IMG/VR virus record: IMGVR_UViG_2734482544_000002
DNA: 21,182 bases
Reading direction: 5' to 3' (one strand)
Source of the DNA: a virus
Lineage: Duplodnaviria; Heunggongvirae; Uroviricota; Caudoviricetes
In this document: piece by piece, positions 1 through 20,223 of the stretch
Layout: each line of letters opens with the position of its first letter
Numbering within the stretch: the stretch's first letter is position 1
Translations under genes and position numbers: made by a program
Notes under the pieces: model-generated
Databases searched by the model: none
What the model was told of the DNA's origin: nothing
What the model saw: only the letters and a program-made list of their open reading frames with translations

Positions 1-3000
1 CGTCATACGCTATACCGTTAAAAATAATGGGCGGAATAATAATCTGGCGGTCAAAGTTATGATCATCGCTGATGGTGACTGTAACCGTACCGTCTGGTGT
101 TTCCGTGTTACCCCACGTACCGACTTTTTTCGGGAAGGCTTTTGATACAGCTTTAACGAAATCCCCTCTGACCTGGGTCGCCTCCAGCATGCCCTTAATC
201 GTACAGTTCTGGTTAATCGTGACATTGTTGAGCGTTCCTGAGTTCGCATTCACACTACCACTGATATCCGCATTTTTAGCGGTCAGCTTTCCGTCTGATG
301 TCAGGGAAAATACCGGAGGACTGCCACCGCTGGTAATGGCGGGGGCTGTCAGGCGCTTCAGGAACACGTCGTTCATGAATATCTGGTTGCCCTGCGCCAC
401 AAACATCGGCGTTTCATTCCCGTTTGCCGGGTCAATAAACGCGATACGATTGGCGGCAACCAGAAACTGGCTCAGCTTGCCTTCCTCCGTGTCCTCCATG
501 CTGAGGCCAATACCCGCGACATAATGTTTGCCGTCTTTGGTCTGCTCAATTTTGACGCCCCACATCGCATTCCATTTATCGTTAGCGTCCTTCCACTCTT
601 TCGAAAACTCATCCAGTCTGCTGGCGTTATCCTCCGTCAGATCAACTTTTTCCAGCAGCTCTTTACCGAGATGGGATTCGGTTATCTTGCCTTTGAAAAA
701 ATCCAGGTAACCTTCCGCATCATCGCTCGCCCGACCGACGGCCTCCACGAATGCCGATTTGCCAACGGTGTTCACACTGCGGATATAAAAGTAATAATCA
801 TGGCCCGGTTTGATATTGATACTGGCGGCTATCCAGTACAGCCCCGCGCCAAGGTAGCGGGCTGTGGTTTCAACCTGCCTGATATCGGTAATCCGCGTTT
901 CCGAGAACCAGAACTCAAACTGTACCGTCGGATCATAAACCGCAAGATGCGGCGTGGCAGTTATCTGAAAATAGCCCGGCGTCAGCTCAATCCGCGACGG
1001 TGCTACCGGTGCGGCAATCCTGAACGATACCGACGCCGGATCGCCCTGCTGTCCCCAGGCATTTACCGCCCGGACTGTCAGCGTGTACCGTCCCAGCGCC
1101 AGTTGCGTGAAGCGGTATGTGGTTTCCGTCGTCCGGGCCGTGCTGACCAGCCGCTCACTGCCGTCATCCGCTGCCACGGTCAGGCGAAGCATAAAGCTCA
1201 CCCCCTTCACCACCTTCGGCGTGTCCCAGCGCGCCAGCACCTGATATTCCCCGCTGTCTGCGGTGACTTCGGCAGTCAGGTGCTGCACCGCTGGCGGCGT
1301 GACACCATTCACCGTGCCGCTCTGGTCGCCGTCAAAGTGCGCCCCGTTATCCACGATGGCTTCTTTTTCCGGTACATGCTGCACGGCAGTGATGGCATAC
1401 GTGCCGTCATCGTTCTCACGGATACTCACACAGCGGAACAGGCGCTGGCGCAACGTCGGCAGCTTCAGCCCCCACACGCTGTATTCAGCAACGCCGTCAG
1501 GAACACGGCTCACTTTCACCTTCACGCCGTCGGTGACGGACTGAACCTCCACGCTGACCGGATTGCCACTTCCGTCAACCAGGCTTATCAGCATGGTACC
1601 GGAGGATGGCAGCGTGATTTCACGGTCGAGCGTCAGCGTCCGGGTCTGGCTGTTTACCGCCAGCACGCGCCCGCCGATGCTGATACCCGCATAGTCATCA
1701 TCACAGATTTCAATGACATCGCCCGGCACATGGCGAAGCCCTTCTGCGCCCACGCTGAAGTCCACGGTCTGCGTTTCCAGCAGTTCTGTTTTAATCAGCC
1801 ACAGCCCGGCGCGGTGTGCCTGCCCCCGNNNNNNNNNNNNNNNNNNNNNNNNNNNNNNNNNNNNNNNNNNNNNNNNNNNNNNNNNNNNNNNNNNNNNNNN
1901 NNNNNNNNNNNNNNNNNNNNNNNNNNNNNNNNNNNNNNNNNNNNNNNNNNNNNNNNNNNNNNNNNNNNNNNNNNNNNNNNNNNNNNNNNNNNNNNNNNNN
2001 NNNNNNNNNNNNNNNNNNNNNNNNNNNNNNNNNNNNNNNNNNNNNNNNNNNNNNNNNNNNNNNNNNNNNNNNNNNNNNNNNNNNNNNNNNNNNNNNNNNN
2101 NNNNNNNNNNNNNACAGCGCATCGCCGAGCAGAAATCACTGAGCACATCCCACGCCTTGCGCTGTGTGGTCAGGTACGCATTACAGGTGATGCGCGGCTC
2201 CGTGCCGCCAAAGCCGTCCGGCACTGACTGGTCGCAGTACTGGCCGATGACATACAGCGCCCATTTGTCCACATCCGCCGCACCAAGACGTTTCCCCATG
2301 CCGTAGCGCGGGTGGGTCAGCATATCCCACAGACACCAGGCCATGTTGTTGCTGTATGCTGGTTTTAACGTTCCGTCCCAGATACCGCTGTATTGTCGCG
2401 TCTGCGGGTTATAGTTCGACGGCACCTGCAGAATGCGCCCGCGAAGATGATAATTACGACTCACCTGCTGGCTGCCGAACTGCTCCGAGTCCACCTGTAC
2501 GCCGACCAGTGCAGTGTTCGGGTAGCACTGTTTCACATCGATGATTTCGGTGTATGACGACCAGAGCGTTTTGTTCTGCAGCTGGTCTGTGGTGCTGTCC
2601 GGTGTCATCCTGCGNNNNNNNNNNNNNNNNNNNNNNNNNNNNNNNNNNNNNNNNNNNNNNNNNNNNNNNNNNNNNNNNNNNNNNNNNNNNNNNNNNNNNN
2701 NNNNNNNNNNNNNNNNNNNNNNNNNNNNNNNNNNNNNNNNNNNNNNNNNNNNNNNNNNNNNNNNNNNNNNNNNNNNNNNNNNNNNNNNNNNNNNNNNNNN
2801 NNNNNNNNNNNNNNNNNNNNNNNNNNNNNNNNNNNNNNNNNNNNNNNNNNNNNNNNNNNNNNNNACCGTCAGGAACACGGCTCACTTTTACCTTCACGCC
2901 GTCGGTGACGGACTGGACCTCCACGCTGACCGGATTCCCCTGCCCGTCAACCAGGCTTATCAGCGTGGTGCCGGAGGATGGCAGCGTGATTTCACGGTCG

Positions 3001-4520
3001 AGCGTCAGCGTCCGGGTCTGGCTGTTCACCGCCAGCACGCGCCCGCCGGTGCGGATACCGGCATAGTCATCATCGCAGATTTCAATGACATCGCCCGGTA
3101 CATGACGAAGCCCTTCAGCACCCACGCTGAAATCCACGGTCTGCGTCTCCAGCAGTTCCGTTTTAATCAGCCACAGCCCGGCGCGGTGTGCCTGCCCCCG
3201 GCTGGTACAGCCAAAGGCATCCATCTTCGTGACGTTACGACCGTAACGGACAATGGCCTGCGTATCCTCCACAAGCTCTGTCGCCGTCTCCCAGCCGTTA
3301 TCCGGGTCAATCCAGTTCACCTCAACGGCATTATGGCGGTCTTTCAGGGCGCTGAAACTGTAGCGGAACGGCGCGCCATCATCCGGCATCACCACATTAC
3401 TGCGGTTATAGGCCCACACCTTATCCGACTGTCGGTCCTGCACGAACGTCAGCGTCTGCCCGTTCCATACCGGCATACAGCGCATCGCCGAGCAGAAATC
3501 ACTGAGCACATCCCACGCCTTGCGCTGTGTGGTCAGCCAGGCATTACAGGTGATGCGCGGCTCCGTGCTGCCAAAGCCGTCCGGCACCGACTGGTCACAG
3601 TACTGGCCGATGACATACAGCGCCCATTTATCCACATCTGCCGCACCAAGACGTTTCCCCATGCCATAGCGCGGATGGGTCAGCATATCCCACAGACACC
3701 AGGCCATGTTGTTGCTGTATGCCGGTTTTAACGTTCCGTCCCAGATACCGCTGTATTGCCGCGTCTGCGGATTATAGTTCGACGGCACCTGCAGAATGCG
3801 CCCGCGAAGATGATAATTACGGCTCACCTGCTGGCTGCCGAACTGCTCCGAATCCACCTGTACGCCGACCAGTGCCGTGTTCGGGTAGCACTGTTTCACA
3901 TCGATGATTTCGGTGTATGACGACCAGAGCGTTTTGTTCTGCAGCTGGTCTGTGGTGCTGTCCGGCGTCATTCTGCGCATCCGGATATTAAACGGGCGCG
4001 GCGGCAGGTTATCCACCACCACCGAGGCCAGATACTGCGAGGTGGTTTTGCCCTTAATGGTGATGTCTTTTTCCGTCACCCAGCCACCGTTACGCTGTAT
4101 CTGAACCAGCAGGCGGACTTCCGACGGATTCCTGTCTCCCTTTGAGGTGGTTTCCACCAGTGCCTGTACACCGAAGGTAAAGCGCAGACGGTCGATGTTT
4201 GCCGACGTGATGGTCCGGGTGATCGGCGTGTCATATTTCACTTCCGTACCCAGCACCGTCTCGGAGCCGGAGGATTCAAATCCCTCCGGCGGTGACTGCT
4301 CCTGCTCACCTGCCCGGAACACCACCGTGACGCCGGAGATGTTGGTATTCCCCTCACTGTCCAGCACCGGCGTACTGTTCAGCAGCACGCTTTTTAATCC
4401 ATCCACCGGACCTTCAACCGGCCCTTCGCTGATGGCATCGATCACACTCAGCAGCTGCGTGGACTTCAGGTTGTCCTTCGCTTCGCGCGGGGTATGCCCC
4501 TTACTGCTGCCTTTACCCAT
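1..4520 (-). CDS. J: Tail tip / host-specificity protein J (central tail fibre). Partial: start codon at 4520, 3' end beyond the window start. Interrupted by two N-runs and an apparent diverged duplication.
   Basis: Track ORF 2454..4520(-) begins [44 protein letters not shown]. My own minus-strand translation of 1..1500 reads in one frame without stops (…[61 protein letters not shown]…[21 protein letters not shown]), i.e. the fibronectin-III-rich C-terminal half of a lambda-J-type protein. Gene sits downstream of I, as in lambda. Confidence 0.9.
1494..2614. repeat. Copy A of a ~1.1 kb J-internal segment (contains gap 1829..2113), diverged direct repeat of 2866..3977
   Basis: 1494..1828 aligns with 2866..3200 (offset 1372) and 2114..2614 aligns with 3477..3977 (offset 1363), with scattered substitutions (e.g. 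ctttcaccttcacgcc vs cttttaccttcacgcc; cagcatggtaccgga vs cagcgtggtgccgga). Confidence 0.85.
1829..2113. other. Assembly gap (285 N)
   Basis: Run of n in the sequence; the equivalent interval in the second copy (3201..3476) is 276 bp, so the gap length is an estimate. Confidence 0.99.
2615..2864. other. Assembly gap (250 N)
   Basis: Run of n in the sequence. Confidence 0.99.
2866..3977. repeat. Copy B of the J-internal segment, contiguous with the J N-terminal region
   Basis: See copy A; copy B is uninterrupted and in frame with the J start at 4520. Confidence 0.85.
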
Positions 4521-4580
4521 TCGTCATGCTCCATAAACGATAAAACCGCCCGGAGGCGATTTCACATAAAACATTTTGCA

Positions 4581-5252
4581 TCAGCGACCAATCACCACAA
4601 CCTGACCACCGTCCCCTTCGTCTGCCGTGCTGATCTCCTGAGATACCACACGTGACCCCACGCGCATTTCACCATACAGAACAGGCATAACATTGCCCTG
4701 GGCAACCATGTTATCCAGTGAGGAGAAATAGGTGTTCTGCTTACCGTTATCCGTTGTCTGTGTGCGGGGAGTTCTGGCTTTCGGTGCCAGCATCTGAGCC
4801 ACACCGCCGAGCACCATACTGGCACCGAGAGAAAACAGAATGCCGGTCATACCACCGGCACCAATGGCAGCCCCCCATGCTGCAAGGGTGGCTCCGGCGG
4901 TAAAGAATGATCCGGCAATGGCGGCTGCTCCCAGGACAATCTGGAATACACCACCTGACTTGGCCCCGGCGACTCTGGGAACAATATGAATCACAGCGCC
5001 GTCAGGCAGAGCCTCATGTAACTGTGCCGTTAATCCGGACGTGCTAACATCCTGCCCGGCAATACGCACCTGATACCAGCCGTCGCTCAGCTTCTGACGA
5101 AACGCAGGGAGCTGTGTGGCCATCGCCCGGATGGCTTCGGCACCCGTTTTCACACGAAGGTCGATGCGGCGGCCAAATCGTTGCAAATCCCCGTAAAGGC
5201 AGATGCGTGCCATGCCCGGTGACGCCAGAGGGAGTGTGTGCGTCGCTGCCAT
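4581..5252 (-). CDS. I: Tail assembly protein I
   Basis: 223-aa ORF, the same length as lambda gpI; overlaps the K 3' end by 103 nt as in lambda; glycine/alanine-rich C-terminal hydrophobic stretch; position between K and J. Confidence 0.88.
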   Translation of the reverse strand: MAATHTLPLASPGMARICLYGDLQRFGRRIDLRVKTGAEAIRAMATQLPAFRQKLSDGWYQVRIAGQDVSTSGLTAQLHEALPDGAVIHIVPRVAGAKSGGVFQIVLGAAAIAGSFFTAGATLAAWGAAIGAGGMTGILFSLGASMVLGGVAQMLAPKARTPRTQTTDNGKQNTYFSSLDNMVAQGNVMPVLYGEMRVGSRVVSQEISTADEGDGGQVVVIGR

Positions 5253-5893: not shown

Positions 5894-5898
5894 GGGAT

Positions 5899-6597
5899 TT
5901 ACTGCGAAAGTTTGTTAATGGAAAGGAAGCCGCCAAAGTTGCCGACGTTATTGCGAAACTTACAGCCACTCAGGCATTTGCTGCATTTATCCTTCGTGAT
6001 GTCGGACGTTGGCTGGTCATATTCATCCGCGACCGCCGGACCGTGATAACCGCACTCATCGCCGCGATAGGTCCAGGTGCAGGTGTTGGCCAGCATGATA
6101 CGTCCCGGAAAAACAGCGCCATCTGTTTCCGTCGGCGTGGACAGTACAAAAGAGGCACTCACCGCGCTCAGTTCGCTGCACTGCTCAATGCGCCAGCGGC
6201 TGATCACCTCCTGCTCCGGATCGGCGTCACTGTTTCCGTTGACGAAGTTCACCGCATCCAGAAAACGGGCGTAAACCTTACGCCGGACCACCGTTCCGCC
6301 GACCAGACTCTGTAGATCTTCCGCCATCCCGGTGACCATACCGTACAGGTTAGAAACCATCAGCGTGGGGCGCGTACTGGTGCCTTTGCCATTCAGTTCA
6401 AAACCACTCCCCTGAATGGGATACGGCTGATACTGTCGCCCCTGCCAGGTGACCGGCTCACCTTTTTCGTTCTGCTCATTACAGAAAAAATAACGTTCTC
6501 CACCGACCTCTGTCAGATCGATTTCCCAGAGCACCACGCTGGCCGACTGCTCCGCACGGGTGCATTCATTCAGTGTTTCCTGCCGGATATCCTGCAT
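5899..6597 (-). CDS. L: Tail tip assembly protein L
   Basis: 232-aa ORF, the same length as lambda gpL; start codon overlaps the M stop by 1 nt; cysteine-rich C-terminus (CSKCLSGCKFRNN) consistent with the Fe-S cluster motif of gpL. Confidence 0.88.
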   Translation of the reverse strand: MQDIRQETLNECTRAEQSASVVLWEIDLTEVGGERYFFCNEQNEKGEPVTWQGRQYQPYPIQGSGFELNGKGTSTRPTLMVSNLYGMVTGMAEDLQSLVGGTVVRRKVYARFLDAVNFVNGNSDADPEQEVISRWRIEQCSELSAVSASFVLSTPTETDGAVFPGRIMLANTCTWTYRGDECGYHGPAVADEYDQPTSDITKDKCSKCLSGCKFRNNVGNFGGFLSINKLSQ

Positions 6598-6926
6598 CAG
6601 TTCACCACCTGTTCAAACTCTGCGCTGAACTCAACACGCAGCATACTGACCCGCGACGACCATTTTGCGCAGGTCACCTTTATCTGCCGCCACTCATAAG
6701 GCGGCGTCCACAGAAAGGCTTTCCAGCCCCCGTGCTCTTCCAGAAACGACTCCAGTACCATGGCCTCCTCACGGGGGACAGAAAGCGTCACGCTGTACGT
6801 TTTCAGGTTGGCATTCAGCCCGGCAGGCGCTCGCTGGGAATAGCCATCACCAAAGCGCACCTTTCTTACAGAAGGGGCCGAAGCCACATCCATACCGGGT
6901 TTCACTTTCCAGCGGAAGGTTTTCAT
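6597..6926 (-). CDS. M: Tail tip assembly protein M
   Basis: 109-aa ORF, the same length as lambda gpM; ATGA overlap with the H stop; position between H and L. Confidence 0.88.
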   Translation of the reverse strand: MKTFRWKVKPGMDVASAPSVRKVRFGDGYSQRAPAGLNANLKTYSVTLSVPREEAMVLESFLEEHGGWKAFLWTPPYEWRQIKVTCAKWSSRVSMLRVEFSAEFEQVVN

Positions 6927-9484
6927 CGTCCACCTCCGGAGAACAGGCCACCATCACGCATCTGTGTCTGAATTTCATCACGGGCACCCTTGCGGGCCAT
7001 GTCATACACGGCCTTCATCATCTGTGGACCTGGCAGACCATTCGTACCGTCGTTCTGAATCACCACGTGATTGTTCTGATTAAAATTAATGCCTTCAGCC
7101 CGCCGCATCTGCGCCGGACTTCCGGCACCGCCCACATAACCACCTTCCGCATAGCCGCGCATCAGCCGGTAGAGATTCCCCACGCCAATCCGGCTGGTTG
7201 CCTCCTTCGTGAAGACAAATTCACCACGGTGAACAATCCCCGCTGGCTCATATTTGCCGCCGGTTCCCGTAAATCCCCCGGTTGCAAAATGGAATTTCAC
7301 CGCAGCGGCCTGAATGGCTGTACCACCTGACGCGGATGCGCCGCCACCAACAGCCCCGCCAATGGCGCTGCCGATACTCCCGACAATCCCCACCATTGCC
7401 TGCTTAAGCAGAATTTCTGTCATCATGGACAGCACGGAGCGGGTGAAGCTGCGCCAGTTCTGTTCACTGCCGGTCAGCATCGCCGCCATATTCTGTGCAA
7501 TACCATCAAAGGTCTGCGTGGCTGCACTTTTAACCTGTGACATACTGTCCGTGGCGCTCTCTTCCCACTCACTCCAGCCGGACTTCAGGCCTGCCATCCA
7601 GCTCCCGCGAAGCTGGTCTTCAGCCGCCCAGGTCTTTTTCTGCTCTGACATGACGTTATTCAGCGCCAGAGGATTATCGCCATACTGTTCCTTCAGGCGC
7701 TGTTCCGTGGCTTCCCGCGCTGCCTGCCGGTCAGTCAGCCCCCGGTTTTTCGCATCAATGGCTGCCCGTTTTGCCCGTTGCTGCTGTGCGAATTTATCCG
7801 CCTGCTGCGCCAGCGCATTCAGGTGCTCCTGATACGTAACCTTGTCACCAAGTGCAGCCAGCTGGCGTTTGTACTCCAGCGTCTCGTCTTTATGCGCCAG
7901 CAGGGATTTCTCCTGTGCGGACAGCTGGCGACGTTGTGCCGCCTCCTCCAGTACCGCGAACTGACTTTCTGCCTTCCACAAATCCCGGCGCTGCTGGCTG
8001 ATTTTCTCATTCGCTCCGGCATGCTTCTCCAGCGTCCGGAGTTCTGCCTGAAGCGTCAGCAGGGCCGCATGAGCACTGTCTTCCTGACGATCGCCCGCAT
8101 ACACCTTCACGCCGGACTGTTTCGGCTTTTTCAGCGTCGCTTCATAATCCTTTTTCGCCGCCGCCATCAGCGTGTTGTAATCTGCCTGCAGGATTTTTCC
8201 GTCTTTCAGTGCCTTGTTCAGTTCTTCCTGACGGGCGGTATATTTCTCCAGCGGCGTCTGCAGCCGTTCGTAAGCCTTCTGCGCCTCTTCGGTATATTTC
8301 AGCCGTGACGCTTCGGTATCGCTCTGCTGCTGCGCATTTTTGTCCTGTTGACGCTGTTGATCTACCCTCTTTTGGGCTGCATCCCGCTCCAGGCGTTTTT
8401 TTTCACGATCATCCCAGTAACGCGCCCGTGCTTCATCGTTAACGAAATAATCATCCTTGCGCAGATTCCAGATGTCGTCTGCTTTCTTAAACGCAGCCTC
8501 TGCCTTAATCAGCATCTCCTGCGCGGTATCAGGACGACCAATATCCAGCACCGCATCCCACATGGATTTGAATGCACGTGCAGTCCTGTCTGCCCAGGTC
8601 TCCAGCGTGCCCATGTTCTCTTTCAGGCGGCGGGTCTGGTCATCAAACCCTTTCGTTGCGGCCTCGTTCGCCGCCTGCAATGCCCCGGCTTCATCGCCGG
8701 AACGCTGCAACTGAGCAACATACGCAATCTGCTCCGCCGTCACGTTATGGAACTGGCGTGCCATCGCCGTCAGCCCCGACGTCGGGTCTGTGGTCAGCTT
8801 CCCGAAGGCTTCAGCGACCTTGTCCACCTCCACGCCGGATGCATAGGAGAAACGCGCCACACTCTGGCTGATGGACGCAATCTGAGCCTCACCGCTTACC
8901 CCCGCCTTAACCAGTGCGCTGAGTGACTCGCTGGTCTGGTTAAACGTCAGCCCTGCCGCCTGCCCGGCTCTGGACAGGACCAGCATACGATCTGCCGTCA
9001 GTCCCGCCTGATTACCGGAAAGGACCAGCGTTTTGTTGAAATCGGACAGGGTTGAGTTGCCCTGATACCAGGCATACGCCAGCGCACCGGTCGCCACCGC
9101 CAGCGAGGTGGCCCCCACCATCGGCAGGGTGATCGCGCCGGCAAGCCCCCTGAACATGGGGATCATCCCGCCGAAGGAGTCCTTAACCTGACCACCCTGT
9201 TGCAGCAGGATCAGCCAGGGATTCTGCCCCCCTGCAAGCTGCGTGGCCACGTCGGTGAACTGTGCAGGCAGCATACGCATGGCGGCTTTATACTGCCCGA
9301 CGGAAATCCCCGCTTTCTGTGCAGCCAGCGCCTGTCGGCTCAGCGACTGTTCAACGACTGCCGCTGTTTTTTTCGCATCACTTTCCGTACCGGAAAAATG
9401 ACGCCTGACTCTGGCCATCTGCTCGTCAAATCTGGCCGCATCCAGACTCAAATCAACGACCAGATCGCCTACCGGTTCAGCCAT
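6923..9484 (-). CDS. H: Tail tape measure protein H
   Basis: 853-aa ORF, the same length as lambda gpH; long Ala/Gln/Glu/Lys-rich coiled-coil-like central region; glycine-rich hydrophobic segment near the C-terminus; position after G/T. Confidence 0.92.
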   Translation of the reverse strand: MAEPVGDLVVDLSLDAARFDEQMARVRRHFSGTESDAKKTAAVVEQSLSRQALAAQKAGISVGQYKAAMRMLPAQFTDVATQLAGGQNPWLILLQQGGQVKDSFGGMIPMFRGLAGAITLPMVGATSLAVATGALAYAWYQGNSTLSDFNKTLVLSGNQAGLTADRMLVLSRAGQAAGLTFNQTSESLSALVKAGVSGEAQIASISQSVARFSYASGVEVDKVAEAFGKLTTDPTSGLTAMARQFHNVTAEQIAYVAQLQRSGDEAGALQAANEAATKGFDDQTRRLKENMGTLETWADRTARAFKSMWDAVLDIGRPDTAQEMLIKAEAAFKKADDIWNLRKDDYFVNDEARARYWDDREKKRLERDAAQKRVDQQRQQDKNAQQQSDTEASRLKYTEEAQKAYERLQTPLEKYTARQEELNKALKDGKILQADYNTLMAAAKKDYEATLKKPKQSGVKVYAGDRQEDSAHAALLTLQAELRTLEKHAGANEKISQQRRDLWKAESQFAVLEEAAQRRQLSAQEKSLLAHKDETLEYKRQLAALGDKVTYQEHLNALAQQADKFAQQQRAKRAAIDAKNRGLTDRQAAREATEQRLKEQYGDNPLALNNVMSEQKKTWAAEDQLRGSWMAGLKSGWSEWEESATDSMSQVKSAATQTFDGIAQNMAAMLTGSEQNWRSFTRSVLSMMTEILLKQAMVGIVGSIGSAIGGAVGGGASASGGTAIQAAAVKFHFATGGFTGTGGKYEPAGIVHRGEFVFTKEATSRIGVGNLYRLMRGYAEGGYVGGAGSPAQMRRAEGINFNQNNHVVIQNDGTNGLPGPQMMKAVYDMARKGARDEIQTQMRDGGLFSGGGR

Positions 9485-9911
9485 ACCGGACTCCTCCTGC
9501 GATCCCTTCTGATACTGTCATCAGCATTACGTCATCCTCCGTCATGTCCGCCACATCCGGGGAAGCGGGGATAACTTCATTCCCGTCCGGGCCAAAGCGG
9601 ACACCTCCGGCAAGCCCTGCCGCTTTCTGCATCAGCACATCATCTTCAGGCTCTTCGTCAGCCTCGCGCCGGTTCAGCAGACTGAAATCCAGCGGATGCA
9701 TCTCCGGATCGCTGAAAAACAGGCTGAGCACGGTGTACGTCAGCCCGGAAAAGTGCATATCCAGCAGAACATCATGAAAATAATGGGTACTGTAAAAGCG
9801 GTGCCAGTCGGCATACTCCGTGGATGACATCCCGGCAAGCATGGCGCGCCAGTCGGGTCGCCCCATCTCACGCGCCAGTTTCAGGGCAAAACTCAGCTCA
9901 CCGTCGAACAC
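9477..9911 (-). CDS. T: T reading frame, expressed only as the G-T fusion by -1 programmed frameshift (tail assembly chaperone)
   Basis: 144-aa ORF overlapping the G 3' end in the -1 frame; slippery GGGAAAG lies at the G/T overlap; overlaps the H start by 8 nt. Confidence 0.85.
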   Translation of the reverse strand: MFDGELSFALKLAREMGRPDWRAMLAGMSSTEYADWHRFYSTHYFHDVLLDMHFSGLTYTVLSLFFSDPEMHPLDFSLLNRREADEEPEDDVLMQKAAGLAGGVRFGPDGNEVIPASPDVADMTEDDVMLMTVSEGIAGGVRYG

Positions 9912-10315
9912 TTTCCCGCAGAAACAGGCTCTGCAGGCCCGGCGTCCTCTGCCTGTTCAGGAGCATCATTCACCACAAACTCATACATACCGGACAGCCG
10001 GTACACCACGTTTTCAGCATGAGAAATTGCCTCTGTGGGCCAGGTGGTAAGCACTTCCTGCTCAATCTGTTTAACGGCTTCATTCATGGACGGCATCTGC
10101 GTCTTCTTCGGATGGTTATGCCACAGGGACATCGCAACCACAAAAGCGCCGGTTCTGATGGCGTCTTCCACAGTAAACTTCCGGTTGCTGTCTGACTCCG
10201 CCTGTTCTGCCTGCCGTTTCATCAGGTCGAGATGCTCAATACGCTGCAGGGCTGACAGTTCAGAAAGCGTGACGGTCACACCGTTATGTTCAAATGATTC
10301 GGTTTTCAGGAACAT
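9893..10315 (-). CDS. G: Tail assembly chaperone G
   Basis: 140-aa ORF, the same length as lambda gpG; C-terminus …SAGKCSTVS* encoded across the GGGAAAG heptamer. Confidence 0.88.
   Translation of the reverse strand: MFLKTESFEHNGVTVTLSELSALQRIEHLDLMKRQAEQAESDSNRKFTVEDAIRTGAFVVAMSLWHNHPKKTQMPSMNEAVKQIEQEVLTTWPTEAISHAENVVYRLSGMYEFVVNDAPEQAEDAGPAEPVSAGKCSTVS
9911..9917 (-). promoter_or_regulatory. Programmed -1 ribosomal frameshift slippery heptamer (G GGA AAG) for G-T
   Basis: Plus strand ctttccc at 9911..9917 is GGGAAAG on the minus strand, 18 nt before the G stop; the -1 frame continues into the T ORF. Confidence 0.8.
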
Positions 10316-10330
10316 CGCTGACTCTCCGGA

Positions 10331-11071
10331 TTAACTGGCGGTGACGTTGATTTCTGCAACCGCAGCAAACTCACCATTACCAGATACGACCGGAATGTTG
10401 ACCTTGCCTGCAGCAACACCTTTCACGGTGATGGTCATACCACTGACCGACACGGTGGCTTTTGTTTTATCCGCAGACACCGCACGGAAGCTCTTGTCGG
10501 TTGCGCCATCCGGCTGGAATGCCACGGTCAGCGTGGTGCTCTGCCCTTTCACTACGGAAGCACTGGCGGGTGTCACCGTCATGCCGGTCGTCGCCGTCAC
10601 CGTGCTGCGATCTTCTGCCATCGACGGACGTCCCACATTGGTGACCTTCACCGTGCGGGTAATCACCTCCTTCGCCGTCACCGCCTTACCGATACTGCTG
10701 ACCCAGCCACGGAACACATCGACCGTGCCGTTCGGGAAGCGGATTTTATAGGCACGGGTATCACCTTCATTAAACCACGCCAGCAGCGCCTGCTGCCCCT
10801 GCTCTCCGGGCATCCACGCCAGCGTGAAGCTGGTATCTCCGGCAGATTTCTGCCCCTGCCCGGTCGCAGTCCAGTCTGCATCTTCATCATCGAGATAGCT
10901 GTCGTCATAGGACTCAGCGGTCAGTTCGCCGGGCGTCAGGTCTTTAACTTTTGCCAGACGCGACCAGTCAACGTCTGAAAGCGGGTTCGCATAAGGGTCA
11001 CCGCTCCCCTTATAAACCCACAGGGTGGTCCCGGCACCTTTCACCGGCATTGTAGGATTTGGTACAGGCAT
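10331..11071 (-). CDS. V: Major tail tube protein V, with C-terminal Ig-like (Big_2) domain
   Basis: Track ORF is 256 aa from 11101; the start at Met11 ([22 protein letters not shown]…) gives 246 aa as in lambda V and lies 7 nt after the U stop. C-terminal …[18 protein letters not shown]. Confidence 0.9.
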
Positions 11072-11078
11072 AGCGTCC

Positions 11079-11474
11079 TCACATTTCATAGATAATGACA
11101 TAAGTCAGATCGGCTGAACTCCACAGGCCCGCATCATCGTCGCGCCGGTAGTCATAGCCGCTGGCCACCATACTGGTGATCAAATCTGACAGTGCCGGGA
11201 TATCGCTCATCACAGGATAAATCCGGGACTCCATCCACGAATCCAGCTCTGAATCCGGCACCTGAGCAGGCAGGAAAACTTCAATATGCAGCTCCGCCTG
11301 CCAGGTATCGCTGTCCAGCTCTTCGCCCGTGTATTCAGCGCCGGTGAGATAAACGGCAATTGCCGGAAAATCTTCCTCATCAAAAACAGCGGGGCGACCA
11401 TCAAAAAGCGTCGCCCCGGTGTCATGCTTCTCCAGTGCATCCAGTACGGCTGCACGGAGTTCAGTATGTTTCAT
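11079..11474 (-). CDS. U: Tail terminator protein U
   Basis: 131-aa ORF, the same length as lambda gpU; ATGA overlap with Z; position between Z and V. Confidence 0.88.
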
Positions 11475-12049
11475 CGCTTTATTACCATTCTCAGTTGATG
11501 CTGCAGCGCATAGCCCAGCTCTTTCGGAAGACGTTCACGCCGTATCCGTTCAATATTCTGTTTAAACGCCGTGGTCAGCGGCACCGCCATCGGGATTTTC
11601 ACCACATCAATGGGGTAACGGTTTTTCCCGGCCACACGCTGCATAACATGCCACCGGCCGTTTTTCAGTTGCTGAATAAACGCGCCGGGAATACGACGGT
11701 TACCCACCACAAGCACGCTGCCGCCACCTTTCAGGGATGAACGCTGCCCCTTTTTATGACGCCTGCGGCGGGACAGGACAACCCGCGCATTACCCAGCTT
11801 GATTACGGGCAAATCCCCCCGGTTAACTTTGATTCTGGCCTGCGGATTTTTGACCGTGGCCCTTTTCAGCCTGGCCCTTTCCTTTACCAGTTTCCGGCGT
11901 ACCTTTGTCTCACGGGCAACCTGTGACGCAGACTGCGATATCGCGGATGAAGCAACGCGGTTAATGGCCATTGCGGCGGCACCGGGCACCGCCGTTTTGC
12001 TGATACGGCTGAGGTTTTCAACGGCCTGCTCAAGACCTTTTATGGCCAT
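11471..12049 (-). CDS. Z: Tail completion protein Z
   Basis: 192-aa ORF, the same length as lambda gpZ; position between FII and U. Confidence 0.85.
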   Translation of the reverse strand: MAIKGLEQAVENLSRISKTAVPGAAAMAINRVASSAISQSASQVARETKVRRKLVKERARLKRATVKNPQARIKVNRGDLPVIKLGNARVVLSRRRRHKKGQRSSLKGGGSVLVVGNRRIPGAFIQQLKNGRWHVMQRVAGKNRYPIDVVKIPMAVPLTTAFKQNIERIRRERLPKELGYALQHQLRMVIKR

Positions 12050-12060
12050 ACATCCCCCTT

Positions 12061-12414
12061 TCAGCGGCGACGGTTAACGGCAGGCGGTACGCCCCGTCCA
12101 AGCCAGAGATGACAACTTCCGCCATCATCCGGCGAAACCCGATCTACCCAGAAATTTTCCTCACCGATGGTCAGCGTGTCTCCACGCCGCAGCTGCCGCA
12201 CCTCATCAGTCCGGACAAACAGGGACGGGCTGGAGCCTTCAACGCGCACGCCCTGTCCGGCATAGCTGATATTTTCAGGGTCATCAAAAACACCACGTAT
12301 CACCGCACCTGACTGCTCACCGGATGTCATGGTGGCTGACGTTCCCATGTACCCGCGTATCGTTTCATCGGCGCGGGCAATGGCAGCATCGAACAGGTTA
12401 TCGAAATCAGCCAC
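12061..12414 (-). CDS. FII: Head-tail connector (head completion) protein FII
   Basis: 117-aa ORF, the same length as lambda gpFII; position after FI. Confidence 0.85.
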   Translation of the reverse strand: MADFDNLFDAAIARADETIRGYMGTSATMTSGEQSGAVIRGVFDDPENISYAGQGVRVEGSSPSLFVRTDEVRQLRRGDTLTIGEENFWVDRVSPDDGGSCHLWLGRGVPPAVNRRR

Positions 12415-12425
12415 AGCGCCTCCCG

Positions 12426-12824
12426 TTATTGCATTCTGGCCAGGCCGCGCTCTGTCATTTCGGCTGCCACACCGGCAGAGACACGAAACGCCGTTCCCGG
12501 CAGCACAAATGCCACAGGTTTATCCCGCGTGGCGTGAAGTGCATCAGTATGCAGCGTCACCAGTGCCACGACCGTGACCAGTTCAGCCGTATCCTGAATC
12601 ACGGTATCCGGCTGCGCTGATACCACCTCATTTTCATGCCCGGTCAGCACATTTTCCCGGCTGAGAGGGGTGTCCTGACCGGCAGTTTCATCCGTGTCAT
12701 CAAGCTCTTCTTCCAGCTCTGCCACACGAAGCGCCAGTTCTTCTTTCGTTCCCGTCAAACTGACATCGCGGTTCAATTGCTCACCCAGCTCCTGAAGACG
12801 GGCAATCAGTTCATCTTTCGTCAT
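12426..12824 (-). CDS. FI: DNA packaging protein FI
   Basis: Track ORF is 145 aa from 12863; the start at MTKDELIARLQELGEQLNRD… gives 132 aa and sits 41 nt after the E stop, as in lambda. Confidence 0.82.
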   Translation of the reverse strand: MTKDELIARLQELGEQLNRDVSLTGTKEELALRVAELEEELDDTDETAGQDTPLSRENVLTGHENEVVSAQPDTVIQDTAELVTVVALVTLHTDALHATRDKPVAFVLPGTAFRVSAGVAAEMTERGLARMQ

Positions 12825-12865
12825 GAACTCCTCCACAGAGAGAAAATGGCCCCGAAGGGCCATGA

Positions 12866-13891
12866 TTACGCCAGTTGAACGGACACGAACTCATCAGGAT
12901 CAGCCAGCAGCATCAGCGGTGCTGACTGAATCATGGTGAACTCACGCGCCGGATCGCCGGTGGTCACCCAGTTTTTCGGGTAACGGGCAGAAGCGTTAAT
13001 GCCTTCGCGCTGTGCGTCCGCATCCTGAATGCAGCCATAGGTGCGCAGACCGCGAGCCTGAGTGTTCCCCAGCACCATCGTGTTGTCCGGCAGGAAGTTC
13101 TTTTTGACGCCGTTTTCCACGTACTGTCCGGAATACACGACGATGGCCACATCGCCATACATTCCCTTATAGGACACCGCTTTGCCCAGGTCTTTTACCG
13201 CTGTCTCCAGCTCGGAATGAGAGCCGCGACGGGTATCCAGCTTCTCCTTGACGGCTTTGAAGGAACGGAACAGCGCCCAGCCTTTCGGGTCAAACACGAT
13301 GATATTCACCACACCGCTGGCGTTCAGCGCGTAGGCTTCGATATCGTCGGTCGGGTCATACGTGGACTTGTCACGCTTGCTCCACTCCGTGACGCCGGAC
13401 TGTGTGATGTTGTTCGCCGCACTGCGGCCCATATCCACCTCAACCGGATCGAAGGCTTCACCGGTCATGGTGTATTTGCCCTTGAGCACGGCAGAAACTG
13501 CCTGCATCTCTTCGACCTGAGCAATGGCCAGCTCTTCGTCACGCATGTTCTGCATGATGATGCGACGGCGGCGGTAAGCCGGGTCCGCCAGATTCTGCGG
13601 ATCTTCATCCGGCAGGCGACGCAGGGTCATCTGCGGATTCACCTCATGCTTGGGTTTGACATATCCCGGCGTAAATTCAGAGGTGGAGCCGCCACGGGAA
13701 CGGATAACCTCACCGGAAACAATCGGCGAAACGTACAGCGCCATGTTTACCAGTCCCGGAATTTGTGAGAGATAGACTTTCTCCGTAGTGAAGGGATAGC
13801 TCTCACGGAAAAAGAGACGCAGAAACAGCGGATCAAACTTAAATTTCTGCTCATTTGCCGCCAGCAGCTGGGCGGTTGTGTACATCGACAT
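12866..13891 (-). CDS. E: Major capsid protein E (HK97-like fold)
   Basis: Track ORF is 350 aa; the internal start MSMYTTAQLLAANEQKFKFDPLFLRLFFRESYPF… gives 341 aa and is recognisably lambda gpE. Confidence 0.93.
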   Translation of the reverse strand: MSMYTTAQLLAANEQKFKFDPLFLRLFFRESYPFTTEKVYLSQIPGLVNMALYVSPIVSGEVIRSRGGSTSEFTPGYVKPKHEVNPQMTLRRLPDEDPQNLADPAYRRRRIIMQNMRDEELAIAQVEEMQAVSAVLKGKYTMTGEAFDPVEVDMGRSAANNITQSGVTEWSKRDKSTYDPTDDIEAYALNASGVVNIIVFDPKGWALFRSFKAVKEKLDTRRGSHSELETAVKDLGKAVSYKGMYGDVAIVVYSGQYVENGVKKNFLPDNTMVLGNTQARGLRTYGCIQDADAQREGINASARYPKNWVTTGDPAREFTMIQSAPLMLLADPDEFVSVQLA

Positions 13892-13946
13892 AAAAAAATC
13901 CCGTAAAAAAAGCCACACAGGCGGCCTTTAGTGATGAAGGGTAAAG

Positions 13947-14279
13947 TTAAACGATGCTGATTGCCGTTCCGGCAAACACGGTCCGTTTTTTCGTCTCGTC
14001 GCTGGCAGCCTCCGGCCAGAGCACATCCTCATAACGGAACGTGCCGGACTTGTAGAACGTCAGTGTGGTGCTGGTCTGGTCAGCAGCAACCGCAAGAATG
14101 CCAACGGCAGCACCGTCGGTGGTGCCATCCCACGCAACCAGCTTACGGGTGGAGGTGTCCAGCATCAGCGGGGTCATTGCAGGCGCTTTCGCACTCAATC
14201 CGCCGGGCGCGGTTGCGGTATGAGCCGGGTCACTATTGCCCAGCGGCTGGTAATGGGTAAAGGTTTCTTTGCTCGTCAT
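13947..14279 (-). CDS. D: Capsid decoration protein D
   Basis: [41 protein letters not shown]…, 110 aa from the second Met; recognisably lambda gpD. Confidence 0.93.
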
Positions 14280-14288
14280 AAACATCCC

Positions 14289-14894
14289 TTACACTGGTGT
14301 GTTCAGCAAATCGTTAACGGCATCAGATGCCGGGTTACCTGCAGCCAGCGGTGCCGGTGCCCCCTGCATCAGACGATCCAGCGCAGTGTCACTGCGCGTC
14401 TGTGCACTCTGTGGTGCTGCGGCCAGAATACGGCGGGCCGTTTCCACGGTCATACCGGGGGTTTCGGCCAGCACGCGTGCCTGTTCTTCGCGTCCGTGAG
14501 CCTCCTCACAGTTGAGGATCCCCATAATGCGACTGTTTTCTGCCGCAACCGCTGCGGTGATCTGCGCGTTCACGTCCGGCTGCGCCGCGCTGGCGTTCTC
14601 GCCCTCCGTCGCTTGCACCACGCCAGTAACGTCAGCCTGCGAAGCAGTGGCTGAAACAGTTGTTGATTGAGTCTCTTTGGTCATTCGCCCTCCTGAGAGA
14701 CGGGATTTACGTGCATCCAGTGCATCACGCATGACGGTGATCGCATCGGTACTGTTAACAAGTTCATCAGCCAGTCCGGCATCAATGGCCTCCTGACCGC
14801 TGTACACTGCAGCCTCGGTATCCAGCACAGCCTGCACGGACAGGCCGGTATATGCCGACACCTTCTGTGCAAACATCCGGCGGGTTGCATCCAT
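14289..14894 (-). CDS. Nu3: Scaffolding protein Nu3, nested in-frame in the 3' third of C
   Basis: In-frame Met at residue 284 of the track ORF (…QSR-MDATRRMFAQKVSAYTG…) gives a 201-aa product sharing the C stop, matching the lambda C/Nu3 arrangement. Confidence 0.7.
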   Translation of the reverse strand: MDATRRMFAQKVSAYTGLSVQAVLDTEAAVYSGQEAIDAGLADELVNSTDAITVMRDALDARKSRLSGGRMTKETQSTTVSATASQADVTGVVQATEGENASAAQPDVNAQITAAVAAENSRIMGILNCEEAHGREEQARVLAETPGMTVETARRILAAAPQSAQTRSDTALDRLMQGAPAPLAAGNPASDAVNDLLNTPV

Positions 14895-15588
14895 CCGGGA
14901 CTGCAATGTTTCCCGGACATCATCCGGTAGATGGCTGTAGGGGTTGCCATCCACCTTATGGCTGCCGCTGTAAATCAGCGTGATTTCCACGCCCTGTTTC
15001 TCCAGTGCAGCGCCGTAATTACTGTGAGCCATCATGACGCCGATGGAGCCTGTCCGGGCGGTCTGCGTGACCAGACGCCGGGAGGCGGCACTGGCAAGCA
15101 GCTGACCTGCGCTGCAGTTCATGTCATTGGCCAGCGCCCATACCGGCTTTATGTCACGCACACGGGCGATGATGTCAGCGCAGTCAAATGCTCCCGCCAC
15201 CATTCCGCCCGGTGTGTCCATATCGAGCAGAATGCCGTCCACCATCGGGTCGCTGGCAGCCTGTTGCAGACGGGCGATAATGCCGTTGTAACCGGTCATC
15301 CCCGAGTACGGCTGCAGCGCCCGCGTCCGGCTGACCAGCGTGCCGGACACCGGCAGCACGGCGATGCCGTTCATTACCTGATAACTGCGGGCCTGTCGTG
15401 GTCCGTCATCATCACCGGATAACGCCAGCGCCGCGGGTGCCTCTCCGGCAGTCAGGCTGTCGCCGGATACTGCATCCGTCAGGCAGCTGATCCCAAGCTG
15501 GCCTGCAAGCGCACAAAAGAAAACCCGCGCATAGGCGGGTTCAAGCATCAGCGGCTCATTAAAAGCCATGCTGGCAATATGCGGGAGA

Positions 15589-15608
<20 letters not shown>
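14289..15608 (-). CDS. C: Head protease / minor capsid protein C (S49/ClpP-like serine protease), likely GTG start
   Basis: Track ORF is 484 aa from 15743; a start at codon 46 (V, GTG; …VTAELRNLPHIASMAFNEPLML…) gives 439 aa and a 20-nt overlap with the B stop, as in lambda. S49-peptidase-like core (…DTPGGMVAGAFD…). Confidence 0.88.
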
Positions 15609-19289
<3,681 letters not shown>

Positions 19290-19315
<26 letters not shown>

Positions 19316-19835
19316 TCAGCAACCCCGGTATCAGTTCATCCAGCGCGGCTGCTTTGTTCATGGCTTTGATGATATCCCGTTTCAGGAAATCAACATGTCG
19401 GTTTTCCAGTTCCGGAAAACGCCGCTGCACCGACAGGGGGATCCCGTCGAGAATACTGGCAATTTCACCTGCGATCCGCGACAGCACGAAAGTACAGAAT
19501 GCGGTTTCCACCACTTCAGCGGAGTCTCTGGCATTTTTCAGCTCCTGTGCGTCGGCCTGCGCACGCGTAAGTCGATGGCGTTCGTACTCAATAGTCCCTG
19601 GCTGGAGATCTGTCTCGCTGGCCTGCCGCAGTTCTTCAACTTCCCGGCGCAGCTTTTCGTTCTCAATTTCAGCATCCCTTTCGGCATACCATCTTATAAC
19701 GGCGGCAGAGTCATAAAGCACCTCATTACCCTTGCCACCGCCTCGCAGAACGGGCATTCCCTGTTCCTGCCAGTTCTGAATGGTACGGATACTCGCACCG
19801 AAAATGTCAGCCAGCTGCTTTTTGTTGACTTCCAT
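19290..19835 (-). CDS. Nu1: Terminase small subunit Nu1 (winged-HTH cosB-binding)
   Basis: 181 aa, MEVNKKQLADIFGASIRTIQNWQEQGMPVLRGGGKGNEVLYDSAAVI…; first gene after cos. Confidence 0.93.
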
Positions 19836-20012
19836 TGTTCATTCCACGGACAAAAACAGAGAAAGGAAACGACAGAGGCCAAAAAGCCCGTTTTCAGCAC
19901 CTGTCGTTTCCTTTCTTTTCAGGGGGTGTTTTAAATAAAAACATTAGGTTACGGCGAAGAAGAACGGAAACGCCTTAAACCGGAAAATTGTCATAAATAG
20001 CGAAAACCCGCG
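19836..20012 (-). promoter_or_regulatory. cosB region (Nu1 R-sites and IHF-binding region) between cosN and the Nu1 start
   Basis: Reverse complement reads …CGCGGGTTTTCGCTATTTATGACAATTTTCCGGTTTAAGGCGTTTCCGTTCTTCTTCG…, closely resembling the lambda left-end cosB sequence as I recall it. Confidence 0.7.
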
Positions 20013-20024
20013 CGCCTTCCGCCC
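20013..20024 (-). other. Putative cosN core (position of the 12-nt cohesive end), uncut in the prophage
   Basis: Minus strand reads CGACAGGTTACG|GGGCGGAAGGCG|CGCGGGTTTTCGC. Flanks match lambda cos, but the 12-mer differs from canonical GGGCGGCGACCT in its last 6 nt. Confidence 0.55.
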
Positions 20025-20223
20025 CGTAACCTGTCGGATCGCCGGAAAGGACCCGCAAAATGATAATAATTATCATCTACATGTCACAACGTGCATCTAC
20101 GCCATCAAACCACGTCAAATAATCAATTATGACGCAGGTATCGTATTAATTGATCTGCATCAACTTAACGTAAAAACAACTTCAGACAATACAAATCAGC
20201 GACACTGAATACAGGGCAACCTC

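What the first reader, a model, noticed from the sequence alone, without database searches (positions are those of the whole stretch)
20013..20024. cosN core apparently differs from the canonical lambda cohesive end in 6 of 12 positions
Both flanks align well to lambda cos (right-end …CGACAGGTTACG; left-end CGCGGGTTTTCGCTATTTATG…), but the 12-mer between them is GGGCGGAAGGCG rather than GGGCGGCGACCT as I remember it. cosN is the terminase nicking site and is normally highly conserved among lambda, 21, phi80 and relatives. A changed right half implies either a different cohesive end with co-adapted terminase, or a cos-defective prophage that cannot package.
Basis: partly seen in the sequence, partly recalled or inferred. 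Interest (0 to 1): 0.5.

Follow-up and report, generated by a model that had tools for sequence, protein, structure and literature searches.

The report
Natural variant of lambda cohesive end
The lambda-type prophage in this window carries a different but common natural version of the 12-base sticky end, changed only in the half that lambda's packaging enzyme is known to tolerate, so it is an ordinary working packaging site and not a broken or exotic one.

Summary
On the minus strand, window 20024..20013 reads GGGCGGAAGGCG where lambda has GGGCGGCGACCT. That is 5 differences (bp 7, 8, 9, 10, 12), not 6.

Everything else in cos matches lambda: cosQ, the CG pairs at both nick sites, the left half GGGCGG, all spacings, R3/R2/R1, Nu1 and A.

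The 12-mer is an established natural allele:
- It occurs in 155 of 5,426 complete E. coli genomes (canonical: 4,101).
- It occurs in 55 IMG/VR contigs with 15 different cosQ-cosN spacers, 9 metagenome contigs and 23 plasmid records.
- It occurs in two deposited phage genomes, PhiR46_1 and YDC107_1, both N15-like phage-plasmids.
- Single-step intermediate alleles exist.

Co-adaptation of terminase is not needed. Four identical gpA proteins, and one identical Nu1+gpA pair, occur with both alleles. Carriers are not decayed: 36 of 39 have intact Nu1 and A, against 36 of 58 canonical loci.

Published work (Feiss et al. 2015) already shows that bp 7-12 vary naturally (N15, phiD326, Gifsy-1) and are tolerated by lambda terminase.

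Verdict: routine, low interest. This exact 12-mer was not found in the papers I could search.

The parts
20013..20024 (-). The 12 bp of cosN that become the cohesive end. Read on the minus strand: 5'-GGGCGGAAGGCG-3' (lambda: GGGCGGCGACCT).
   Evidence: The position corresponds to the feature annotated 'cos site' in phage DE3 and to lambda bp 1-12.
20013..20018 (-). Right half of cosN (lambda bp 7-12): AAGGCG instead of CGACCT. All 5 differences lie here.
   Evidence: alignment. PMC4669245 states that natural differences in bp 7-12 are common and that mutations there have minimal effect.
20011..20026 (-). cosN including the conserved CG dinucleotides that flank each nick site (bp -2,-1 and 13,14). 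Inferred nicks: top strand between window 20025 and 20024, bottom strand between 20013 and 20012.
   Evidence: Sequence. The flanking CG pairs are described as highly conserved in PMC4669245 and PMC9026076. The nick positions are inferred by homology and were not measured.
20048..20054 (-). cosQ (GGGTCCT), the packaging-termination signal. It lies 23 nt upstream of the top-strand nick, as in lambda.
   Evidence: cosQ is annotated at the equivalent place in the phage 434 records.
19960..19975 (-). R3, the critical TerS (Nu1) binding site of cosB, at lambda bp 50-65: AGGCGTTTCCGTTCTT, identical to lambda.
   Evidence: The extent bp 50-65 comes from PMC9026076. The cosN-to-R3 spacing is unchanged: the window is collinear with lambda from bp 13 to 17160 without indels.
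19901..19916 (-). R2, an inverted copy of the R motif (AGAAAGGAAACGACAG) in cosB.
   Evidence: identical to lambda. The boundaries are my reading of the repeated motif, not a tested footprint.
19860..19875 (-). R1, a direct copy of the R motif (CTGTCGTTTCCTTTCT) in cosB.
   Evidence: The boundaries are inferred as for R2.
19290..19835 (-). Nu1 (TerS), 181 aa. It has 3 differences from lambda Nu1: K48R, A75T, L132I.
17390..19315 (-). A (TerL, gpA), 641 aa. It has 4 differences from lambda gpA: T151S, D185E, L404R, T466I.

Best explanation
This is a working lambda-type cos site that carries a natural alternative allele of the cohesive-end sequence.

How it should work:
1. Nu1 (TerS) binds R3/R2/R1 of cosB, with an IHF-induced bend between R3 and R2.
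2. That anchors gpA (TerL) over cosN.
3. TerL nicks the top strand after ...TTACG and the bottom strand 12 bp away.
4. The virion DNA then has 5' overhangs GGGCGGAAGGCG and its complement, instead of lambda's GGGCGGCGACCT.

All five changes lie in bp 7-12. Nicking of that half depends on positioning by TerS at R3 rather than on the local sequence, so ordinary lambda terminase handles it without any change.

The allele is old and has spread by recombination among lambda-like prophages and N15-like phage-plasmids of Escherichia.

Shown here: the anatomy, the distribution of the allele, the absence of terminase co-variation, and the intactness of carriers. Inferred: the actual nick positions and the packaging efficiency.
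For: (1) Anatomy. cosQ, its 23-nt distance to the nick, the CG flanks, the left half GGGCGG and R3/R2/R1 are all as in lambda. There is no indel between lambda bp 13 and 17160.

(2) Recurrence.
- The exact 37-mer spanning the variant occurs in 155 of 5,426 complete E. coli genomes (166 places). The canonical 37-mer occurs in 4,101 genomes (7,413 places).
- The variant occurs in 29 IMG/VR and 9 metagenome contigs under one flank definition.
- It occurs in 55 IMG/VR contigs under a cosQ-anchored definition, with 15 distinct cosQ-cosN spacers.
- It occurs in 23 PLSDB plasmids from E. coli, Shigella sonnei, E. albertii and E. fergusonii.
- It occurs in one GTDB species representative, Escherichia sp. 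E1V33.

(3) Different backgrounds. The sequences upstream of cosQ are unrelated among carriers.

(4) Complete elements carry it.
- Phage PhiR46_1 has annotated telL/telR ends, a full lambda-like head and tail module, and the laboratory host ECOR13.
- Phage YDC107_1 carries it.
- Plasmid pAH01-1 has a protelomerase, SopA/ParB, RepA and Nu1 through J.

(5) No terminase co-adaptation. No substitution is fixed in carriers. Four identical gpA proteins and one identical Nu1+gpA pair occur with both alleles.

(6) Carriers are not decayed. 36 of 39 variant loci have full-length Nu1 and gpA, against 36 of 58 canonical loci.

(7) It belongs to a known spectrum of alleles. In IMG/VR the non-canonical alleles are N15-type CGTCCG (60), this allele (55), Gifsy-1-type CAGCGT (50) and about 19 rarer ones. 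These include one-step neighbours AAGGCT and CAGGCG, then CAGGCT, CAGACG and CAGACT.

(8) Literature (PMC4669245).
- Differences in bp 7-12 are common. N15 and phiD326 differ at bp 9 and 12, Gifsy-1 at bp 8, 9 and 11.
- Right-half mutations have minimal phenotypes.
- Lambda carrying the N15 cosN gives the same yield as lambda with its own cosN (132 against 120 pfu per cell).

(9) Annealing strength is preserved. Both 12-mers have 10 of 12 G+C, and nearest-neighbour dG is -17.8 against -18.2 kcal/mol.
Against: - Nobody has measured the ends of a virion that carries this allele. The two phage records that contain it are written in prophage or plasmid orientation, without a cos annotation.
- The published tolerance data cover single changes and the 2-bp N15 difference. 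They do not cover a 5-of-6 replacement that also changes the base next to the bottom-strand nick (bp 12 T>G, which the N15 allele shares).
- I found no paper describing how PhiR46_1 was isolated. That it forms plaques rests on the record's host field.
- This particular prophage may be unable to make infectious particles for another reason, a disrupted J gene. It cannot by itself prove that the site works.
Confidence: 0.85

Rival explanations
1. Cos-defective prophage. The changed right half stops terminase from nicking, so this element cannot be packaged and the variant is a scar of decay.
For: The window's prophage has a disrupted J gene, so it may be defective anyway. Five clustered changes next to the bottom-strand nick look drastic.
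Against: - The same 12-mer is present in 155 complete E. coli genomes and in many unrelated backgrounds.
- It is present in complete phage-plasmids and in a deposited phage.
- 36 of 39 carriers keep intact Nu1 and A, more than among canonical carriers.
- Decay would produce scattered singleton sequences, not one discrete allele found 55 times.
- The literature shows that bp 7-12 are tolerant of change.
Confidence: 0.04
2. A different cohesive end that needs a co-adapted terminase. On this reading, carriers encode a TerL (or TerS) variant specialised for the altered nick site.
For: - The window's gpA has L404R, seen only in 3 variant carriers and in none of 54 canonical ones. From my memory it lies close to the nuclease active-site residue D401.
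- A distinct Nu1 haplotype of about 12 linked substitutions is almost confined to variant carriers (7-10 of 31 against 1 of 93).
Against: - 21 of 24 variant carriers have L404, as lambda does.
- Most variant carriers have the ordinary Nu1.
- Four identical gpA sequences and one identical Nu1+gpA pair are found with both alleles.
- Variant-carrier gpA proteins are 1-7 residues from lambda gpA, the same range as canonical carriers.
- Lambda and N15 terminases showed no cosN specificity in experiments.
Confidence: 0.05
3. Sequencing or assembly error, or a private mutation of this one genome.
For: None beyond the fact that the window's exact source was not found among complete E. coli genomes. 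The best match is 97.3% identical.
Against: Identical 12-mers occur in hundreds of independent assemblies from several collections.
Confidence: 0.01
4. The allele works and is also kept by selection as an end-incompatibility group. Ends with 5 mismatches could not anneal with canonical ends, which would limit hybrid chromosomes between co-resident lambda-like elements. This adds to the best explanation and does not exclude it.
For: - The alleles fall into a few discrete, frequent classes rather than a smear.
- The variant is strongly enriched on extrachromosomal N15-like elements: 16 of 166 places against 19 of 7,413 for the canonical allele.
- A 2-bp end mismatch already lowers yield (PMC4669245, text).
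Against: - Linkage and shared ancestry of the Nu1-A block could give the same pattern.
- Feiss et al. read bp 7-12 as not under selection.
- No test of selection was done here.
Confidence: 0.1

Closest known systems
Bacteriophage lambda cos (cosQ-cosN-cosB) with cohesive end GGGCGGCGACCT
   Same: - cosQ GGGTCCT, the 23-nt distance to the nick, the CG pairs at both nicks and the left half GGGCGG.
- R3 is identical at bp 50-65, and R2 and R1 match.
- Nu1 is 98.3% and gpA 99.4% identical.
- The window is collinear with lambda through gene I.
   Different: Bp 7, 8, 9, 10 and 12 of the cohesive end: AAGGCG instead of CGACCT.
cosN of phage N15 and phiD326 (GGGCGGCGTCCG)
   Same: A natural right-half variant with the left half and CG flanks conserved. 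It shares G at bp 12. It was shown experimentally to be packaged equally well by lambda terminase.
   Different: N15 differs from lambda at only 2 positions (9 and 12), has T rather than G at bp 9, and sits beside a simple cosB and a TerL 65% identical to lambda's. The window allele has 5 changes beside a fully lambda-type cosB and terminase.
cosN of Salmonella phage Gifsy-1 type (differs from lambda at bp 8, 9, 11). The allele matching that description in my census is GGGCGGCAGCGT.
   Same: A multi-position right-half variant (A at bp 8, G at bp 9, as in the window allele) with a conserved left half.
   Different: A different sequence at bp 7, 10, 11 and 12. Assigning GGGCGGCAGCGT to Gifsy-1 is inferred from the positions stated in PMC4669245, not from a Gifsy-1 record.
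Putative cos of mEp213 and LLS (GGGCGGCGCGCT)
   Same: Another right-half variant of a lambda-type 12-nt 5' overhang, inferred from sequence (PMC12315714).
   Different: It changes bp 9 and 10 only, and belongs to phages whose TerL is more distant from lambda's.

Membership tests
lambda-like cos site (12-nt 5' cohesive ends, as defined in PMC4669245) | [quoted passage not shown] | tested here: met
   7 of 12 positions are identical and bp 1-6 are identical.
lambda-like cos site (12-nt 5' cohesive ends, as defined in PMC4669245) | Conserved 5'-CG-3' dinucleotides flanking both nick positions | tested here: met
   ...TTACG|GGGCGGAAGGCG|CGCGGG. Conservation of these pairs is stated.
lambda-like cos site (12-nt 5' cohesive ends, as defined in PMC4669245) | cosQ (GGGTCCT) at the conserved distance upstream of cosN | tested here: met
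   Window 20054..20048 on the minus strand, 23 nt before the nick, as in lambda.
lambda-like cos site (12-nt 5' cohesive ends, as defined in PMC4669245) | Complex cosB: R3 at bp 50-65, then inverted R2 and direct R1, followed by the TerS and TerL genes | tested here: met
   R3 is identical to lambda, R2 and R1 are present, and Nu1 and A are intact.
lambda-like cos site (12-nt 5' cohesive ends, as defined in PMC4669245) | Terminase actually makes nicks staggered by 12 bp, giving 5' overhangs | not testable with these tools
   This needs virion end sequencing or an in vitro cos-cleavage assay.
canonical lambda / 21 / phi80 / 434 cohesive-end sequence | The 12-mer is identical to GGGCGGCGACCT | tested here: not met
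   5 differences, at bp 7, 8, 9, 10 and 12.
lambda packaging specificity (TerS-lambda with cosB-lambda) | Lambda-type R sequences and a lambda-type Nu1 | tested here: met
   R3 is identical. Nu1 has 3 substitutions (K48R, A75T, L132I), none within residues 17-24, the recognition helix as given in PMC9026076.
cos-defective or decaying cryptic prophage | Packaging genes and sites show disruption, and the variant is private or scattered | tested here: not met
   Nu1 through I are full length. The allele recurs in 155 genomes. 36 of 39 carriers have intact terminase genes. Caveat: J in this window is disrupted by a duplication, which is unrelated to cos.

The most novel reading that the evidence does not exclude
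The cohesive-end sequence of lambda-type phages exists as a small number of discrete, frequent alleles: canonical, N15-type, Gifsy-type and this AAGGCG type. The AAGGCG allele is concentrated in N15-like linear phage-plasmids. These alleles could act as end-compatibility groups, kept by selection against hybrid chromosomes with mismatched ends among the many lambda-like elements that share one cell and one terminase type. On this reading they would not be neutral drift in a tolerated half-site.
Probability: 0.1. Interest if true: 0.45.

Novelty: new member of a known kind. Interest (0 to 1): 0.15.

Why it matters
It matters little for biology in general. It confirms, with population-scale counts, the published view that the right half of cosN is free to vary while the left half, the nick-flanking CG pairs and cosQ are fixed.

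Practical value:
- Annotation pipelines and tools that find phage termini by looking for GGGCGGCGACCT will miss about 3% of E. coli genomes' lambda-type cos sites, and about half of those on N15-like phage-plasmids.
- Lambda-based in vitro packaging or cosmid logic would give ends that cannot anneal with standard lambda arms.
- The allele is the most diverged frequent natural cosN (5 of 6 right-half positions). That makes it a convenient natural substrate for testing how far TerS anchoring makes bottom-strand nicking independent of sequence.

Tried and rejected
- A full-text search for the string GGGCGGAAGGCG found only an unrelated plant paper.
- The survey most likely to list the allele is not in the library: Vahanian et al. 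2017, Virology 509:140, cited. I could not check whether it already catalogues this 12-mer.
- No paper describing the PhiR phages was found.
- The first scan of species-representative genomes, with a strict GGTTACG flank, found nothing. A cosQ-anchored pattern then found one carrier, Escherichia sp. E1V33.
- I looked for the window's source genome. The best complete E. coli genome is only 97.3% identical and lacks the J duplication.
- I tested for a terminase residue diagnostic of the allele and found none. L404R and the divergent Nu1 haplotype occur only in subsets.
- Two carriers seemed to have a different cosB. L140 turned out to be a deletion that removes cosB, Nu1 and the 5' end of A. L127 has a TerS-like protein only 35% identical to Nu1. 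I did not classify L127 further.
- I considered a local inversion or an indel as the origin of the 5-base change. The length is unchanged and the reverse complement does not match lambda. The chain of single-step intermediate alleles makes stepwise divergence followed by recombination the simpler account.

Full report
**What is in the window**

The window is a lambda-type prophage segment in reverse orientation. Nu1 lies at 19835..19290 and A at 19315..17390, both on the minus strand. Read on the minus strand, the cos region is ...GCGGGTCCTTTCCGGCGATCCGACAGGTTACG GGGCGGAAGGCG CGCGGGTTTTCGCTATTTATGACAATTTTCCGGTTTAAGGCGTTTCCGTTCTTCTTCG.... The 12-mer occupies window 20024..20013.

**Checking the observation**

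- I aligned the region with lambda (the DE3 record, whose 12 bp are annotated 'cos site'), 2H10, Turner, PhiR70_1 and an Stx1 phage. GGGCGGAAGGCG sits exactly where the others have GGGCGGCGACCT, or GGGCGGAGACCT in PhiR70_1, with no indel.
- Against the lambda reference, the window is collinear from bp 13 to 17160.
- The differences are at bp 7, 8, 9, 10 and 12.
- The cos region has 22 mismatches to lambda in 361 nt, and five of them fall in six adjacent bases. Random placement of 22 mismatches does this in 178 of 200,000 trials. The change is a discrete replacement, not background drift.

**Anatomy around the 12-mer**

| Feature | Window coordinates (minus strand) | Compared with lambda |
|---|---|---|
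| cosQ GGGTCCT | 20054..20048 | 23 nt before the top-strand nick, as in lambda |
| CG pairs at both nick sites | 20026..20025 and 20012..20011 | conserved |
| Left half GGGCGG | 20024..20019 | identical |
| R3 (bp 50-65) | 19975..19960 | identical |
| R2 motif | 19916..19901 | conserved |
| R1 motif | 19875..19860 | conserved |

The extent of R3 is from PMC9026076.

Nu1 differs from lambda at 3 residues and gpA at 4. Every lambda gene from Nu1 to I is full length at 94-100% amino-acid identity. So the only unusual element is the right half of cosN.

**Is the 12-mer private or recurrent?**

Tabulated with the five phage loci already fetched, it gave 120 canonical, 2 of this variant and two singletons.
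- Exact-pattern scans found the variant in 29 IMG/VR contigs and 9 metagenome contigs.
- Among 5,426 complete E. coli genomes, a 37-mer spanning the variant occurs in 155 genomes. That is 166 places, 16 of them on plasmid records, several of them about 46 kb. The canonical 37-mer occurs in 4,101 genomes, at 7,413 places, 19 of them on plasmids.
- PLSDB holds 23 plasmids with the variant, from E. coli, Shigella sonnei, E. albertii and E. fergusonii.
- Among species-representative genomes, one Escherichia sp. (E1V33) carries it.

**Backgrounds of the carriers**

The carriers have unrelated sequences upstream of cosQ and several different cosQ-cosN spacers. Under a cosQ-anchored definition there are 55 IMG/VR carriers with 15 distinct spacers. 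The allele has therefore passed through many recombination events.

**Complete elements that carry it**

- Two records in the phage collection have it. PhiR46_1 has annotated telL and telR ends, a full lambda-like head and tail module, and the host field 'E. coli ECOR13'. YDC107_1 is filed under Ravinvirus.
- Plasmid pAH01-1 is a complete N15-like phage-plasmid. It has a protelomerase, SopA/ParB and RepA, plus Nu1 through J.

**Census of right-half alleles**

I scanned IMG/VR with patterns that exclude the canonical allele one position at a time. The non-canonical alleles were:

| Right half (bp 7-12) | Count | Note |
|---|---|---|
| CGTCCG | 60 | N15-type |
| AAGGCG | 55 | this window |
| CAGCGT | 50 | fits the published description of Gifsy-1 |
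| CGTCCT | 15 | |
| CGACCG | 10 | |
| AGACCT | 6 | |
| CAGACT | 6 | |
| about 15 others | 1-3 each | |

No contig had a change only at bp 10 or only at bp 11.

One-step neighbours of the window allele exist (AAGGCT and CAGGCG), followed by CAGGCT, CAGACG and CAGACT. This gives a single-step path back to a form three changes from lambda. The lambda and N15 ends were confirmed from their reference records.

*Co-adapted terminase.* Per-site comparison of Nu1 and gpA between variant and canonical carriers found no substitution fixed in the variant group. L404R occurs in only 3 of 24 variant carriers, and T466I is polymorphic in both groups. With more loci, four identical gpA proteins and one identical Nu1+gpA pair were found with both alleles. 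Variant-carrier gpA lies 1-7 residues from lambda gpA, the same range as canonical carriers.

*Cos-defective prophage.* Among loci with at least 2.7 kb downstream of cos and a lambda-type terminase, 36 of 39 variant loci have full-length Nu1 and gpA, against 36 of 58 canonical loci. Neither reading is supported.

**What the literature says**

Feiss et al. 2015 (PMC4669245) report the following:
- In lambda-like cosN sites, differences in bp 7-12 are common. N15 and phiD326 differ at 9 and 12, and Gifsy-1 at 8, 9 and 11.
- Mutations in bp 7-12 have minimal effects, whereas symmetric left-half mutations are severe.
- This asymmetry reflects anchoring of TerL by TerS at cosB.
- The nick-flanking CG pairs and cosQ are conserved.
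- Lambda carrying the N15 cosN yields as much phage as lambda with its own.

PMC9026076 adds that TerL endonuclease centres are not highly sequence specific, and that the cosN-to-R3 spacing is critical. That spacing is unchanged here.

A dedicated survey exists (Vahanian et al. 2017, Virology 509:140, cited), but it is not held in the library. The exact 12-mer appears in no phage paper I could search.

**Mechanism**

Steps 1 to 3 are inferred by homology; step 4 was computed.
1. Nu1 binds R3, R2 and R1.
2. gpA is positioned over cosN and nicks after TTACG on the top strand and 12 bp away on the bottom strand.
3. The virion ends are 5'-GGGCGGAAGGCG and its complement.
4. G+C content (10 of 12) and predicted duplex stability (-17.8 against -18.2 kcal/mol) match lambda's, so cyclisation should be as efficient.

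A chromosome with one end of each allele would have 5 mismatches in 12 and would probably not cyclise. A 2-mismatch pair already lowers yield.

**Verdict**

This is a real, functional-looking, fairly common natural allele of a site whose right half is already known to vary freely. It is routine and of low interest.

Two things remain open. The ends of a virion carrying this allele have not been measured. The marked enrichment of the allele on N15-like phage-plasmids (16 of 166 places against 19 of 7,413) is unexplained.

Noticed in passing
window 1..4520 (minus strand). Repeat copies at 1494-1793 / 2866-3165 and 2114-2413 / 3477-3776.: The tail-tip gene J contains a tandem partial duplication of about 1.36-1.37 kb whose copies are 93-96% identical. 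The junction is out of frame. One ORF (4520..2454, 688 aa) covers J residues 1-552 plus out-of-frame sequence. A second open frame (2881 to the window edge) carries J residues 182-348 and 441-1043 (tblastn matches). The best-matching E. coli genomes lack the extra 1.37 kb. This prophage may therefore be tail-defective, independently of cos.
   Followed up: partly
window 18104..18106 (gpA codon 404, minus strand): gpA has L404R. This was seen only in 3 variant-cosN carriers, including this window, and in none of 54 canonical carriers. From memory it lies near the nuclease active-site residue D401. Most variant carriers have L404, so it is not required for the allele.
   Followed up: partly
E. 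coli genomes and PLSDB hits, e.g. NZ_CP055252.1 (L320), PV340565.1 (L395), CP025712.1 (L163): The variant cosN is strongly enriched on extrachromosomal N15-like linear phage-plasmids (protelomerase, SopAB/ParAB, RepA) that carry lambda-type Nu1/A and head and tail genes. It accounts for 16 of 166 variant places against 19 of 7,413 canonical places on plasmid records.
   Followed up: partly
Nu1 of a subset of variant carriers among loci L089-L161: A distinct Nu1 haplotype with about 12 linked substitutions (V46A, Q71L, Q78H, I82L, Y84F, D95T, R103K, D104E, G123R, A126S, E144D, V148I; 92.8% identity) is almost confined to variant-cosN carriers: 7-10 of 31 against 1 of 93.
   Followed up: no
L127: cos at 4111-4135, ORF at 4252..4803: One carrier of the variant cosN has no lambda cosB. 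Downstream it has a TerS-like protein only 35% identical to Nu1, and upstream there are capsid-like genes and a small DNA-binding-type ORF. It could be a satellite (PICI-like) or another phage type that shares cosQ and cosN.
   Followed up: no
L140: cos at 3266-3290, minus strand: This is a prophage remnant with the variant cosN. A deletion or replacement removes cosB, Nu1 and the first 50 or so codons of A.
   Followed up: partly
L180 (Raphidiopsis brookii D9), L183 (Aeromicrobium sp.), L184 (Archangium violaceum), L187 (Alicyclobacillus fastidiosus plasmid): Perfect canonical lambda cosQ, cosN and right flank occur in assemblies of non-enterobacterial species. Most likely this is lambda, cosmid or fosmid vector or spike-in contamination of those assemblies.
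   Followed up: no
L002 (phage PhiR70_1, PV340577.1), locus position about 766: A deposited phage with a one-base cosN variant, GGGCGGAGACCT (bp 7 C>A). The same allele occurs in 6 IMG/VR contigs.
   Followed up: no
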